DNA of 64,000 bases from Macrostomum lignano (lineage: Eukaryota), in NCBI GenBank assembly GCA_002269645.1, contig NIVC01002298.1:87970-151969 (forward strand), in the 5' to 3' direction. Of this stretch, positions 24,325-32,915 are shown in pieces. How positions within the stretch are numbered: position 1 is the first letter of the stretch; every line of letters begins with the position of its first letter. The position numbers and the translations under genes were made by a program. The notes beneath the pieces are model-generated. The model was not told the origin of the DNA. It ran no database searches and worked only from the letters and a program-made list of their open reading frames with translations.

Positions 24325-24668
24325 ATTGAGGTGGGGGTGGAGAAAAAATTATTATGGTGTCTTTGGCAGTTTGAACACTGGTAATAGGCTGCTAACACCA
24401 GTTAGGCAGGTAGATTTCATGTTTGAACTGCCGCCTGTGTTGTCTTGGCACTTGTTAAGCTAGAAAATTTCACAAATAGATGTGTTTTAACTTCTCCTTG
24501 ATACTCCATCTGCTGGGTCCTCAATTCTGGGGGAAGGTAGTTGTAATTGCAGTTGAATAGTCTTTTAGTGGCACAGTCATTCCAAATTGGTCCTCAGACA
24601 CTGTAAAATTTGTGATCTGTTGATATGCTCAGTTTGTTACTCTTAGTAGCAAAGTAGCATTGCCACCA
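24325..24668 (-). mobile_element. Old CpG-depleted fragment homologous to 28775-29090
   Basis: Manual alignment: about 90% identity outside CpG sites; the CpGs of the other copy are converted to TG/CA/TA. Confidence 0.8.
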
Positions 24669-27638: not shown

Positions 27639-28011
27639 CAGCCGCATCGCGTCGAGGCTTGTCTTGTACTGTTGGCGACAAGCGGCGAGAACTTGAGGAA
27701 GCGACGTTAGCAGCCGCATCGCGTCGAGGCTTGTCTTGTACTGTTGGCGACAAGCGGCGAGAACCTGAAGAAACGACGTCATCAGCCGCATCGCGTCGAG
27801 GCTTGTCTTGTACTGTTGGCGACAAGCGGCGAGAACCTGAAGAAACGACGTTAGCAGCCGCATCGCATCGCGTCGAGGCTTGTCTTGTACTGTTGGCGAC
27901 AAGCGGCGAGAACCTGAAGAAACGACGTTAGCAGCCGCATCGCATCGCGTCGAGGCTTGTCTTGTACTGTTGGCGACAAGCGGCGAGAACCTGAAGAAAC
28001 GACGTTAGCAG
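27639..28011 (-). repeat. 72-bp tandem array (5 copies) encoding 24-aa repeats on the minus strand
   Basis: Period 72 at 27639/27711/27783/27855; the last two copies carry a 5-bp gcatc duplication; peptide SPTVQDKPRRDAAANVASSSSRRL. Confidence 0.93.
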
Positions 28012-28218
28012 CGTTGAGTGGATACTCCGTTGGAAGAATTGTTGACGCTGGCCTGAATGAGCCGTCAGAAATAAATTCACTGTCGTGTTGACCCTTAATC
28101 TCCGCCCTGGAAAACGAATAATGAAGTACAAAGCAAAAGATAAAAGAATCAGAAGACAGAAAAGGCAAGTGAAGTACAGGTGTCTAGTTGGTCTGGAGAT
28201 GGCCTGGTAGGTCTTGAA

Positions 28219-28236
28219 ATCCCACCGCTGCCACCA
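28219..28236 (-). promoter_or_regulatory. Primer-binding site complementary to the 3' end of tRNA-Leu
   Basis: Plus strand atcccaccgctgccacca equals the 3' 18 nt (including CCA) of metazoan tRNA-Leu(AAG/TAG type) as I recall it. Confidence 0.8.
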
Positions 28237-30180
28237 GTGAAGTACTTGCTCTTGCCTGTGGTTCTTGACTAGAAGCTTCCGATCCGATAGAGGCGCTGCC
28301 ACCAATGGAGTGCTGAGGGCCGTCTCGGGTTGTCTCGGGATGGTCTGGCTGATCTCCTAGCGCTGGGCGATGACCTCTGGTCGGTGGTTTCTTAGTTCTC
28401 GTAGCGTAGGTAGTGCTGCCACCAGCTTCGCAGAGTCGCAGCCTTCGGTGAGGTGCTGAGCTCGTATAAGCAAATAACTAAGACGAGAGAGACAGACTCG
28501 CACTTCGTGCAGATTTAGCAGTTCTTGAGCAGAGGTGTCCGCAGTCAGCAGTCCCTGCCGGGCTAGTGCGGGGTTAGAGCGATGGTGCTAGCTTCGGGCG
28601 ATCTAAGCTGGCCTGCTAATTCATAGCAGGAGCAAAGATCAAACCTGCACACAACTGAGAGCCTTGGGCTGAAGGGAATCTCGGAGACTGGTTGAAATAG
28701 AGAGGCAGATAAACGCTTGTCTGAGCCAAGCCATGAGAGGGGCTGCATCTATAGGGAGAATCGTTTGCACCATAGTGAGGTAGGGGCGGAGAAGAAAATA
28801 AACTTTGAAATCGGTCAGTTGCTGACACCAATGAGATGGGGCGGTTAAACTTTAAATTGCTGCCTGTGTTGTCTCGGCACTCGTAAAGCCGGAAAATTTC
28901 ACGAACTGATGCGTTTAGCTTCTCCTTTGATACTCCGTCTGCCGGGTCCTCAATTCCTGGGGAGGGTAGTCGTAATTCGCAGTCGAGCAGTCTTTTAACG
29001 GCACGGTCGTTCAATTGGGTCCTCAGACGCCGTAAATTTCGTAAACTGTCGATATGCTCGGTTTGTTACTATCAGTAGTAAAGTAGCGAACACATGGAAA
29101 CGACAAGCATGAGAGCAAAATTGGTTAAAACAAACGTATAAATAGTATTGGACACGACTAATCCCAGGGGGTGGGGCACCGAGTGGGACAGAGAAAGGAG
29201 CACCCAAAGGAAAAGGGGAAAAACCGGCCGCTGGACACAGTAAAACAGACAAGGGATGGGCAGCGATTGGAGCAAACAGGGAAGCAACGGACGGGACAAC
29301 CAGGGGAACAGTCAAGGGAACAACCGATGAAAACAATGACGTCAGTCCGTCAGTAGATGGAAAACCGCCTTGTTCGCGCTAGCGACCGCTGTCGTCCTCC
29401 GAGTGGTAGACCGGCCTACCACAATAGCACGAAAGACCCCGCGGAGAGTCATGGGTGACTCTGTTGCTATTTTTAGCAACAAGCGAGCGGGTTCTGCCTC
29501 AGGAGGCAGGGGTCCTGGCGCACGTGATGTCCCATAAACACAAGCCCAGCGTACAATGATAAATCATTGCACTTTGGACTAAAGAAGGAAGCAGGCCCTG
29601 TCATGTGACTGGCTCACATGACAGGGGGGAAAGGGCCCACAAGTGAAGGCACTCGTGACCTTGGGACCGGAAAACAGGACAGCACTCCAAATTTGGAGAT
29701 GCCAAACAGAGAACGAAACAGAGGCAGGCCAGACCAAGCTGTCTGGGCACTGCAAAACGAAAACACGAGACAAAAAGGGGCAAACGAGGACAAACAGACA
29801 GACAGGCAAACGGGCAAGGGACAGGCAACTGCCCAGCGGCAGACAGAAACCTGGGGCGAGGGCGAGGGAAACAGCTGACTAGTGCGGCGCCTAACTAAAC
29901 TATCGACTCACTACACAAGTGTTTTGCGCAAGAAATTCATATGACACAATATCTGGCAATACGGAGAGAGAATAGGGTTGGCATAATTTGTTAACAGAAA
30001 TCACCACAAAATTACCCGAACAACAGTAAAAATTCTTCATGTTGACTAAGTGGTAGGAATCTAATCTGTACTACCCAAGATCACTACCCAATGTCTGAAG
30101 TTCTGCTAGAAGAGTGTTTTCAAATGCCTCAGTTTACATGAGTGACGCAAGGCCGACAGGTAGATGCCCAGATACAGATG

Positions 30181-32612
30181 ATGAAAGCCGAAATGTGTCC
30201 ACAGAAATCACCACAAATGATCTGGATGCTATCATGCATTTGGAGTACTTGCAAAGAAGCCGATCTGAACACCCAAAAGTCCATTTAACTCTGCCATTTC
30301 TGTTAAAAGTGCCTTTTATCTACGTAACTGGACATATATACATGACTCAAATATGGCAGGTGGGTGCCCAGACTCAGTTAGTGAAAGCCGAAATGTGTCC
30401 ACAGAAATCACCATAAATGATCTGGATGCTATCATGCATTTGGAGTACTTGCAAAGAAGCCGATCTGAACACCCAAAAGTCCATTTAACTCTGCCATTTC
30501 TGTTAAAAGTGCCTTTTATCTACGTAACTGGACATATATACATGACTCAAATATGGCAGGTGGGTGCCCAGACTCAGTTAGTGAAAGCCGAAATGTGTCC
30601 ACAGAAATCACCACAAATGATCTGGATGCTATCATGCATTTGGAGTACTTGCAAAGAAGCCGATCTGAACACCCAAAAGTCCATTTAACTCTGCCATTTC
30701 TGTTAAAAGTGCCTTTTATCTACGTAACTGGACATATATACATGACTCAAATATGGCAGGTGGGTGCCCAGACTCAGTTAGTGAAAGCCGAAATGTGTCC
30801 ACAGAAATCACCACAAATGATCTGGATGCTATCATGCATTTGGAGTACTTGCAAAGAAGCCGATCTGAACACCCAAAAGTCCATTTAACTCTGCCATTTC
30901 TGTTAAAAGTGCCTTTTATCTACGTAACTGGACATATATACATGACTCAAATATGGCAGGTGGGTGCCCAGACTCAGTTAGTGAAAGCCGAAATGTGTCC
31001 ACAGAAATCACCACAAATGATCTGGATGCTATCATGCATTTGGAGTACTTGCAAAGAAGCCGATCTGAACACCCAAAAGTCCATTTAACTCTGCCATTTC
31101 TGTTAAAAGTGCCTTTTATCTACGTAACTGGACATATATACATGACTCAAATATGGCAGGTGGGTGCCCAGACTCAGTTAGTGAAAGCCGAAATGTGTCC
31201 ACAGAAATCACCACAAATGATCTGGATGCTATCATGCATTTGGAGTACTTGCAAAGAAGCCGATCTGAACACCCAAAAGTCCATTTAACTCTGCCATTTC
31301 TGTTAAAAGTGCCTTTTATCTACGTAACTGGACATATATACATGACTCAAATATGGCAGGTGGGTGCCCAGACTCAGTTAGTGAAAGCCGAAATGTGTCC
31401 ACAGAAATCACCACAAATGATCTGGATGCTATCATGCATTTGGAGTACTTGCAAAGAAGCCGATCTGAACACCCAAAAGTCCATTTAACTCTGCCATTTC
31501 TGTTAAAAGTGCCTTTTATCTACGTAACTGGACATATATACATGACTCAAATATGGCAGGTGGGTGCCCAGACTCAGTTAGTGAAAGCCGAAATGTGTCC
31601 ACAGAAATCACCACAAATGATCTGGATGCTATCATGCATTTGGAGTACTTGCAAAGAAGCCGATCTGAACACCCAAAAGTCCATTTAACTCTGCCATTTC
31701 TGTTAAAAGTGCCTTTTATCTACGTAACTGGACATATATACATGACTCAAATATAGCAGGTGGGTGCCCAGACTCAGTTAGTGAAAGCCGAAATGTGTCC
31801 ACAGAAATCACCACAAATGATCTGGATGCTATCATGCATTTGGAGTACTTGCAAAGAAGCCGATCTGAACACCCAAAAGTCCATTTAACTCTGCCATTTC
31901 TGTTAAAAGTGCCTTTTATCTACGTAACTGGACATATATACATGACTCAAATATGGCAGGTGGGTGCCCAGACTCAGTTAGTGAAAGCCGAAATGTGTCC
32001 ACAGAAATCACCACAAATGATCTGGATGCTATCATGCATTTGGAGTACTTGCAAAGAAGCCGATCTGAACACCCAAAAGTCCATTTAACTCTGCCATTTC
32101 TGTTAAAAGTGCCTTTTATCTACGTAACTGGACATATATACATGACTCAAATATGGCAGGTGGGTGCCCAGACTCAGTTAGTGAAAGCCGAAATGTGTCC
32201 ACAGAAATCACCACAAATGATCTGGATGCTATCATGCATTTGGAGTACTTGCAAAGAAGCCGATCTGAACACCCAAAAGTCCATTTAACTCTGCCATTTC
32301 TGTTAAAAGTGCCTTTTATCTACGTAACTGGACATATATACATGACTCAAATATAGCAGGTGGGTGCCCAGACTCAGTTAGTGAAAGCCGAAATGTGTCC
32401 ACAGAAATCACCACAAATGATCTGGATGCTATCATGCATTTGGAGTACTTGCAAAGAAGCCGATCTGAACACCCAAAAGTCCATTTAACTCTGCCATTTC
32501 TGTTAAAAGTGCCTTTTATCTACGTAACTGGACATATATACATGACTCAAATATGGCAGGTGGGTGCCCAGACTCAGTTAGTGAAAGCCGAAATGTGTCT
32601 ACAGAAATCACC
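30181..32612 (+). repeat. 200-bp satellite, about 12 near-identical copies, flanked by diverged ancestral units (29994-30180, 32600-32670)
   Basis: Exact 200-bp register (gtgaaagccg at 30381, 30581 ... 32581); only a few SNPs. Confidence 0.98.
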
Positions 32613-32915
32613 ACAAAATTATCTGAACAACAGTAAACATTCTTCATGTTGACTGAGTGGTAAAAATCCAATAAGTCTGTAAGACCGATGGGTTTAACTT
32701 CATTACTTAAAGTTATTATGCTATAGATAAAATTTGCATATTTTTATTATATTCATTAGTTATATGTGTCAAGTTTTTAAATAACCATGTAAAAATTTTA
32801 ATCAACCTTCATTATGACCATAGTAGAAACTATGGTTAATAGTTGCTTGTTTTACAACAAATAGTTACATTTACTTTCTATCTGCAGCTTTTTAGACCAC
32901 CATCAGCTGCTCATC

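What the first reader, a model, noticed from the sequence alone, without database searches (positions are those of the whole stretch)
28219..28424. Cluster of three tRNA-Leu primer-binding-site motifs in an LTR-like element
Seen: the minus strand carries a perfect 18-nt PBS TGGTGGCAGCGGTGGGAT (28236-28219) and two shorter copies, TGGTGGCAGCG (28304-28294) and TGGTGGCAGC (28424-28415), 68 and 120 bp apart. The two longer copies are preceded by similar LTR-end-like sequence (gtacttCAc, gcactcCAt). A given 10-mer is expected about 2e-4 times in 200 bp, so two extra copies are not chance. Established: LTR elements normally carry one PBS directly after the LTR-terminal CA. Inference: a multi-PBS array formed by repeated duplication of the U5-end/PBS junction (progressive LTR extension or spacer-like accretion), or an array of 3'-tRF-Leu target sites. 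I recall multi-PBS structures being reported in a few animal LTR lineages, so novelty needs a literature check.
Basis: partly seen in the sequence, partly recalled or inferred. Interest (0 to 1): 0.78.

Follow-up and report, generated by a model that had tools for sequence, protein, structure and literature searches.

The report
Retrotransposon ends with stacked primer sites
A group of jumping genes in this animal genome carries zero to three extra copies of its tRNA primer site inside both terminal repeats, and elements whose two ends differ by one copy suggest that the stack likely grows and shrinks by slips during reverse transcription.

Summary
The three motifs are real. They lie inside a solo LTR (29915-28170, minus strand, 4-bp TSD CTTG) of a young Ty3/gypsy group, not behind it. 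The 18-mer matches host tRNA-Leu(AAG/TAG) at 18 of 18 bases. Full-length relatives carry 0-3 [CA end + PBS + 30-70-nt spacer] units in both LTRs, and the outermost PBS normally primes. Four elements with intact TSDs differ by one unit between their LTRs (three 5'>3', one 3'>5'). The outer PBS carries a 2-nt insertion in 37 of 67 junctions. In the inner context the perfect form has 323 matches and the inserted form 0. The same design occurs in families with 51-75% RT identity, including an LTR nested in the window's own. Best reading: out-of-register strand transfer between two packaged RNAs adds and removes units. Function is unproven; a predicted PBS-masking hairpin failed a context test. Motif 1 is a fixed LTR motif with no CA before it. 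Ten literature searches found no description. The scan noted similar arrays in three other genomes. Verdict: new variant of a known kind.

The parts
28170..29915 (-). Solo LTR of Ty3/gypsy family 'A' (TGTAGTG...ACTTCA); about 1.09 kb without the nested insertion
   Evidence: Ends and TSD read directly. 85-87% identical over its 5' 500 nt to 5' LTRs of elements with an internal region (L023, L025, L026).
29916..29919 (-). Left target-site duplication CTTG
28166..28169 (-). Right target-site duplication CTTG
28409..28424 (-). Motif 1: fixed 10-nt PBS-like LTR motif plus ACTACC, predicted to form a 5-bp hairpin; not preceded by CA
   Evidence: Present at the same place in families A, B, C, D (variant) and F; fold (z -1.16, not significant)
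28306..28408 (-). First U5 segment, ending in an inner CA end (CACTCCA)
   Evidence: Related solo and 3' LTRs end at the equivalent position (L030)
28238..28305 (-). Inner unit of the short type: 1-nt gap, 11-nt PBS (motif 2, 28304-28294), spacer, inner CA end (GTACTTCA)
   Evidence: Many family A LTRs end here, with a TSD (L011, L021)
28170..28237 (-). Inner unit of the full type: 1-nt gap, perfect 18-nt tRNA-Leu PBS (motif 3, 28236-28219), 49-nt spacer, true LTR end
   Evidence: the same unit head in families A-E
28198..28211 (-). Two 6-nt arms (CCTACC, GCCATC) complementary to motif 3; predicted hairpin that pairs 12 of the 18 PBS bases
   Evidence: not more closed than outer PBSs in wider context
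28776..29423 (-). Nested 648-bp solo LTR of a second gypsy family ('G'), TSD CTAT
   Evidence: Relatives lack it; many copies; a full element with paired LTRs and RT 54% identical to family A
28821..28830 (-). Inner PBS-like 10-mer of the nested LTR, after a duplicated CA end; first 9 nt fit host tRNA-Leu(CAG)

Best explanation
The motifs are inner copies of the tRNA-Leu primer site in the U5 end of a Ty3/gypsy LTR, in a variable array of [CA end + PBS + spacer] units that is likely lengthened and shortened by out-of-register strand transfer or template switching between two packaged RNAs during reverse transcription. SHOWN: units sit in both LTRs; their number is 0-3; the 3' LTR normally ends at the outermost CA end; four elements differ by one unit between their LTRs; inner PBSs are mostly perfect while the outer PBS often has an insertion. 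INFERRED: (1) tRNA-Leu normally primes at the outermost PBS, so all inner units are copied into both LTRs. (2) The outer PBS is mostly inherited from the RNA and not from the tRNA, as in Ty1 and Ty3, which lets the inserted form persist. (3) Because each unit repeats the end-plus-PBS junction, a nascent strand can anneal one unit out of register, or the two LTR ends can come from different packaged RNAs; this adds, drops or shuffles units, also between families. (4) Priming at an inner PBS could occasionally trim the 3' LTR. (5) The first unit of a lineage probably arose when a tRNA-tailed plus-strand strong-stop DNA was rescued by jumping back into U5. The array is probably a tolerated, self-renewing by-product that also supplies spare priming sites. 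The window copy is a dead solo LTR.
For: 70 of 73 5'/3' pairs have equal unit counts, and the 3' LTR ends at the last CA end. C163 and C2478 (LTRs 99.9% and 100% identical, TSD TAAT and ATTA) have one unit more at the 5' end, as does C440 (TSD ACTA). C206 (TSD GTTA) has one more at the 3' end, an exact copy with a perfect PBS, although its outer PBS has an insertion. C199 and C511 have different U5 tips in their two LTRs (8 and 7 mismatches in 120-180 nt, against 2 and 1 in the 600 nt upstream), which points to two templates. Inner context: 323 perfect against 0 inserted matches. All 14 inserted family A PBSs are outer. Outer PBS: 37 inserted, 28 perfect and 2 other of 67 junctions found in 78 loci not chosen by PBS form. 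No host tRNA fits the two commonest inserted forms. The same unit head occurs in LTR families whose upstream 750 nt do not align. Unit tips share a slightly longer suffix with their own LTR's first end than shuffled pairs do (5.4 against 4.3 nt; 31 of 5000 shuffles; n=29). Non-inheritance of the primer sequence in Ty1 and Ty3: PMC5371799 and PMC7472051, passages.
Against: No reverse-transcription intermediate was seen; the mechanism rests on 4 asymmetric and 2 chimeric elements. C206 was hand-picked from a hit list because it looked asymmetric, and C440 came from a list chosen by PBS form; only C163 and C2478 come from unselected sets. Post-insertion gene conversion, unequal recombination or assembly error could give the same pictures, and the asymmetric junctions were not confirmed in reads. 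The 323 against 0 contrast is not 323 independent events, since most units share one head (80 of 146 raw hits). It also follows if units are only ever copied from older inner units, so it does not prove tRNA copying. 28 of 67 outer PBSs are perfect, so some tRNA inheritance may occur. Inner PBS and head are conserved (31 and 30 of 37 units identical) while the next 24 nt give 26 variants (partly inflated by flank bases), which a purely neutral array does not obviously predict.
Confidence: 0.6

Rival explanations
1. The inner PBSs are kept by selection as decoys or loading sites: perfect, hairpin-held copies bind 3'-tRF-Leu or recruit tRNA-Leu, while the working PBS takes a bulge to evade silencing.
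For: Inner PBS and head are conserved while tips vary. The design is shared across families with 62-75% RT identity and recurs in family G at 51-56%. Outer PBSs have different insertions in families A, B, D, F and G, costing 6-13 kcal/mol of predicted tRNA pairing. Mouse ERVs favour mismatched PBSs, which the authors attribute to tRF evasion (PMC7472051, passages). 24 of 43 inner 50-mers, against 0 of 28 outer, fold at z<-2 with the downstream part shuffled.
Against: 33 of 73 pairs have no inner unit at all, many with identical LTRs, so units are dispensable. Decayed inner units are fixed in some subfamilies. In +/-60-nt context the inner PBS is harder to open than the outer in 5 of 11 elements, easier in 5 and mixed in 1. 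Whole-sequence shuffles give z -0.40 for the window unit and +1.74 for its U5. 5 of 12 stem substitutions break a pair. No small-RNA data were examined.
Confidence: 0.2
2. The array is ordinary DNA-level tandem duplication and unequal recombination in the chromosome, unrelated to reverse transcription; the PBS is simply part of the repeated unit.
For: Some arrays have exact tandem units (C723, 86 nt; C910, 78 nt). The genome is rich in tandem repeats, and tandem LTR-internal-LTR arrays exist.
Against: Unit boundaries coincide with the CA end plus PBS in every family. The inserted outer PBS is not captured. The asymmetric elements C163 and C2478 have LTRs 99.9-100% identical, so little time has passed since insertion. 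Units differ in sequence within one array.
Confidence: 0.12
3. Every inner PBS is a routinely used alternative priming site (a true multi-PBS element).
For: Each inner PBS has its own CA end and 1-nt gap. Three elements have a 3' LTR that ends at an inner end. Solo LTRs end after different units.
Against: 37 of 40 pairs with at least one inner unit end at the outermost CA end, even when the outer PBS is the weaker, inserted form. The 3'>5' case (C206) cannot arise from inner priming.
Confidence: 0.08

Closest known systems
Canonical Ty3/gypsy (Metaviridae) LTR-PBS junction
   Same: TG...CA LTRs, 4-bp TSD, PBS 1 nt after the 5' LTR, PPT before the 3' LTR, gag zinc knuckle and RT-RNaseH-integrase order.
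   Different: A single PBS outside the LTR is the norm (established knowledge). Here 0-3 further end-plus-PBS units are inside both LTRs.
Yeast Ty1 and Ty3 reverse transcription (PMC5371799, passages)
   Same: The PBS is not inherited from the primer tRNA; plus-strand transfer uses R-U5 homology; tRNA-tailed strong-stop DNA is a dead end; the Ty1 PBS is interrupted by an internal loop. This would explain a persistent inserted PBS and LTR ends from two templates.
   Different: No U5 array of PBS copies is described in the passages seen. The primer is tRNA-iMet. That our elements use this route is inferred, not shown.
Drosophila gypsy, two tRNA-Lys2 binding sites (PMC1635307, abstract)
   Same: An extra primer-binding site that is dispensable for cDNA synthesis.
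   Different: One fixed extra site at the RNA 3' end, not a variable array of end-plus-PBS units in U5.
HIV-1 MAL-type partial PBS duplication (PMC3185550, passages)
   Same: A natural duplication of PBS sequence next to the working PBS, polymorphic among isolates.
   Different: A single 23-nt insertion downstream of the PBS, outside the LTR, with no repeated integration end.
Culex cqgypsy_1 (PMC3286476, passages and section 13)
   Same: A gypsy element with a 26-nt duplicated LTR end around tRNA-derived sequence at the PBS.
   Different: A single element with an inserted tRNA dimer; not a family-wide variable array.
Mouse ERVs with mismatched PBSs under 3'-tRF pressure (PMC7472051, passages)
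   Same: The commonest working PBS departs from the perfect tRNA complement, and perfect and imperfect forms coexist.
   Different: Substitutions rather than 2-nt insertions; no perfect copies stacked in the LTR are mentioned in the passages seen.

Membership tests
Ty3/gypsy LTR retrotransposon | Paired LTRs with TG...CA ends and a target-site duplication | tested here: met
   Window solo LTR with TSD CTTG; paired LTRs with 4-bp TSDs in relatives
Ty3/gypsy LTR retrotransposon | PBS after the 5' LTR and PPT before the 3' LTR | tested here: met
   86 PPT-LTR junctions
Ty3/gypsy LTR retrotransposon | pol order RT-RNaseH-integrase | tested here: met
   Pfam RVT_1, RT_RNaseH, then Integrase_H2C2 and rve in a family B element. 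Its RT is 99% identical to family A RT. The window copy itself has no internal region.
Ty3/gypsy LTR retrotransposon | Aspartic protease between gag and RT | tested here: inconclusive
   The 289-aa frame between gag and RT had no Pfam hit
Named gypsy clade (Mag, Osvaldo, 412/mdg1, CsRN1 and others) | RT phylogeny with reference elements | not testable with these tools
   No reference set is held. One search gave unclassified relatives (57% to two proteins named from Macrostomum lignano, otherwise 31-48%).
TRIM / non-autonomous tandem LTR element | Short, non-coding internal region | tested here: not met
   Relatives are 9-10.5 kb and code for gag and pol domains
Ty1/Ty3-type plus-strand transfer | [quoted passage not shown] | tested here: inconclusive
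   The inserted PBS persists across many U5 variants and has no matching tRNA, but 28 of 67 outer PBSs are perfect
CRISPR-like acquisition array | Spacers taken from foreign sequence | tested here: not met
   Spacers resemble each other and the element's own U5
CRISPR-like acquisition array | Polar growth at one end | tested here: inconclusive
   The poorer unit is inside in 9 insertions and outside in 1 (read); not tested on a tree
3'-tRF target or decoy array | Binding of tRF-Leu in vivo | not testable with these tools
   No small-RNA raw reads were offered

The most novel reading that the evidence does not exclude
These retrotransposons have split the two roles of the PBS. The working site is repeatedly bulged to slip past tRNA-fragment silencing. 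Perfect copies, written from the primer tRNA itself during failed plus-strand transfers and held in self-made hairpins, are stacked in U5 as a renewable decoy or tRNA-loading array. This would be a recurrent, so far undescribed counter-defence module of LTR elements, and each array would record past reverse-transcription errors.
Probability: 0.2. Interest if true: 0.82.

Novelty: new variant of a known kind. Interest (0 to 1): 0.62.

Why it matters
It breaks the rule that the PBS lies once, outside the LTR. It gives hundreds of natural copies in which LTR ends lengthen, shorten and swap, with single events caught between the two LTRs of one element. That makes open questions testable in an animal: whether metazoan gypsy elements inherit their PBS from the tRNA or from the RNA, whether the two LTRs come from one or two templates, and whether tRNA fragments shape PBS sequence. 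In practice, LTR boundaries and PBS calls will be wrong for such families, since a solo LTR looks like a 5' LTR with a PBS, and LTR-pair dating is disturbed when U5 tips come from different templates.

Tried and rejected
Codon explanation (LVAA): rejected; spacings are not in frame, although a 142-aa stop-to-stop frame overlaps motifs 2-3. Element truncated after a real PBS: rejected; the TSD follows the last spacer. A variant host tRNA matching the inserted PBS: 0 matches with up to 1 mismatch. Hairpin masking as the reason why inner PBSs are unused: not supported in context; stem conservation is a weak test because any transition on the C-rich arm keeps a pair. One of the 43 'inner' sequences (L062) is really an outer junction. 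A Fisher test printed is not used, because copies are not independent. Clade assignment by homologue names: uninformative. Expression: no RNA holder listed; contigs cannot give ends, strand or level. A read check of an asymmetric junction gave no result. Pairs not obtained: 3 of 40 had no 3' LTR in the stretch fetched and 5 had a cut or interrupted one (one of these, C423, was recovered); of 48 loci, 30 were paired. One search includes duplicate insertions (at least 5 pairs share a TSD or flank), 2 tandem arrays with a shared LTR (L200, L210) and one mis-parsed row (L207, 5' side cut). Literature searches with no description of such arrays. Two primary Ty1 papers were not held, so I rely on reviews.

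Full report
OBSERVATION. They are the only exact TGGTGGCAGC matches in 64 kb. The genome G000 has 12 places with the complementary tRNA end; 6 of 6 tested are tRNA-Leu AAG or TAG, and the 18-mer is their exact complement once CCA is added. Public contigs reproduce 28219-28422 and 28104-28247 without differences. Earlier notes call the host a flatworm, and the closest named RT relatives by identity, at 57%, are from Macrostomum lignano. I cite the genome only as G000.

ANATOMY. The element starts TGTAGTG at 29915 and ends ACTTCA at 28170, with CTTG on both sides. It is a solo LTR, and all three motifs are inside it. A second solo LTR (29423-28776, TSD CTAT) is nested in it. The U5 end reads: motif 1 (10 nt, no CA before it); a first segment ending in CA; a short unit (1 nt, 11-nt PBS, spacer, CA); and a full unit (1 nt, 18-nt PBS, 49-nt spacer, CA = true end). 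A DNA search scored 40 of 849 candidates and returned 44 matches. The 30 loci inspected end after different units, several with a TSD.

FULL-LENGTH RELATIVES. Relatives are 9-10.5 kb with LTR pairs often 99-100% identical, 4-bp TSDs and a PPT. Pfam finds a zinc knuckle, RT, RNase H and integrase in gypsy order. That element's RT is 99% identical to family A's. Inner units are present in both LTRs. In 73 5'/3' pairs the counts were 0/0 in 33, 1/1 in 28, 2/2 in 8, 3/3 in 1, 1/0 in 2 and 2/1 in 1 (this set includes duplicates, two tandem arrays and one mis-parsed row). The 3' LTR therefore normally ends at the outermost CA end. By the established mechanism, that means the outermost PBS primed.

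EVENTS CAUGHT BETWEEN TWO LTRS. C163 and C2478, from a set anchored on the 5' UTR, have one more unit at the 5' end, LTRs 99.9-100% identical and intact TSDs. C440 is similar. In six further pairs picked from the hit list, C206 has one more unit in its 3' LTR: an exact copy with a perfect PBS, while its outer PBS has an insertion. It was chosen because it looked asymmetric. C199 and C511 have different U5 tips in their two LTRs despite near identity upstream. Inner priming can explain 5'>3' only. Use of two packaged RNAs, or out-of-register annealing, explains both directions and the chimeric tips. None of these junctions was confirmed in reads.

INNER VERSUS OUTER PBS. In 78 loci not chosen by PBS form, 67 outer junctions were found: 37 with a 2-nt insertion, 28 perfect and 2 other (the two anchor sets overlap slightly, and the 5' UTR anchor excludes one form). 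All 14 genome-wide matches to the family A inserted form are outer. In the inner context there are 323 perfect and 0 inserted matches. No host tRNA fits the inserted forms tested. So the units are not duplicates of today's junction in those lineages. The contrast is not independent evidence 323 times over, and copying of older inner units explains it as well as copying of tRNA. Persistence of an inserted PBS fits the Ty1/Ty3 route, in which the primer sequence is not inherited (PMC5371799 and PMC7472051, passages).

DEPTH OF THE PATTERN. Six LTR families have inner 18-nt units. A, B and C share RT at 99-100%; D is at 75%; E and F are at 69-70% to A and 62% to each other. The upstream LTR sequence of D, E and F does not align with the others. 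Family G, nested in the window, has RT at 51-56%, an inner CA end plus 9-10 nt that fit tRNA-Leu(CAG) in both LTRs, and an outer PBS with insertions. In 37 distinct full units from unselected loci the PBS is perfect in 31 and the head identical in 30, while the next 24 nt give 26 variants.

STRUCTURE. The unit head contains two arms complementary to the PBS, and the same hairpin is predicted in most units: 24 of 43 inner against 0 of 28 outer sequences reach z<-2. Against this, whole-sequence shuffles give z -0.40 for the window unit; in +/-60-nt context inner sites are not consistently harder to open (5 harder, 5 easier, 1 mixed); and 5 of 12 stem changes break a pair. I keep the hairpin as a conserved prediction, not as a shown mask.

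MECHANISM. Shown: position, number variation, outermost end used, asymmetric and chimeric pairs, and the inner-perfect/outer-inserted contrast. Inferred: unit gain, loss and exchange by out-of-register transfer between two RNAs; PBS inherited from the RNA; first units seeded by rescued tRNA-tailed plus strong-stop DNA (the least certain step); occasional inner priming. Confidence 0.6. Rivals: selected decoy or tRNA-loading array 0.2; chromosomal tandem duplication 0.12; routine multi-site priming 0.08. Units are dispensable, since 33 of 73 pairs have none.

LITERATURE. Ten searches found no description of variable end-plus-PBS arrays inside both LTRs. What I saw: PMC10886601 passages (TRIMs, not this); PMC3286476 passages and section 13; PMC5371799 and PMC7472051 passages; PMC1635307 abstract and outline; PMC3212995 passages ('two PBSs' there appears to mean two PBS types among copies); PMC3185550 passages; PMC5730564 listing and passages on repeat annotation (nothing on PBS arrays, not used). 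All others were search listings only. No supplements were opened; consensus files or PBS tables in them could show such units. Gypsy clade names used here are recalled. The scan's own notes report similar arrays in three other genomes; they are unchecked leads.

VERDICT. A real, family-wide and recurrent departure from the standard LTR/PBS layout, well documented in DNA, with a plausible but unproven mechanism and no shown function. New variant of a known kind; interest 0.62.

Noticed in passing
window 28776-29423 (-); G000 C77 (L266-L268): The nested LTR belongs to a distant family (RT 51-56%) that has its own inner CA end plus a 9-10-nt tRNA-Leu(CAG) PBS piece in both LTRs, and an outer PBS with insertions.
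   Followed up: yes
L042, L046, L058, L222, L224, just after the outer PBS: The 5' UTR starts with a variable number of tandem repeats that each contain GGATTCGA, complementary to the T-loop side of tRNA-Leu; possibly extended primer pairing.
   Followed up: no
family B LTR tips, e.g. L052-L059, L102-L130: The last 12 nt of U5 ends are a patchwork: 21 distinct unit ends in 29 LTRs, and 18 variants in 43 first ends against 8-11 in upstream 12-nt windows.
   Followed up: partly
L082, L083, L089: Families A, B and C share an RT 99-100% identical in protein but have LTRs that align only in short 70-77% stretches, suggesting LTR swapping or very fast LTR change.
   Followed up: partly
L094:1266-3050: A 595-aa open frame after pol in a family A element has no Pfam hit. 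Earlier notes on this genome describe J-domain third ORFs in gypsy elements; not compared.
   Followed up: no
G000 C255, C2137, C3668, C4250: Tandem LTR-internal-LTR-internal-LTR arrays; in C2137 the middle and last LTR differ in unit number.
   Followed up: no
window 28748-28753 (-): The TATA-like box reads TATAGA, whereas four relatives read TATAAA, and the nested LTR sits about 20 nt upstream; the solo LTR's promoter is probably damaged.
   Followed up: no
window 24422-24658 (+ coordinates): A decayed (82%) piece of the nested LTR family.
   Followed up: no
window 27641-28012 and 30182-32617: The LTR is flanked by a 75-77-bp tandem repeat and a 200-bp repeat with 99% identical copies; the window is dense in unrelated satellites.
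   Followed up: no
G000 C2298, C326, C1081: The same insertion with the same flanks occurs three times at 99-100% identity, so copy counts in this assembly are inflated by duplicated regions.
   Followed up: partly
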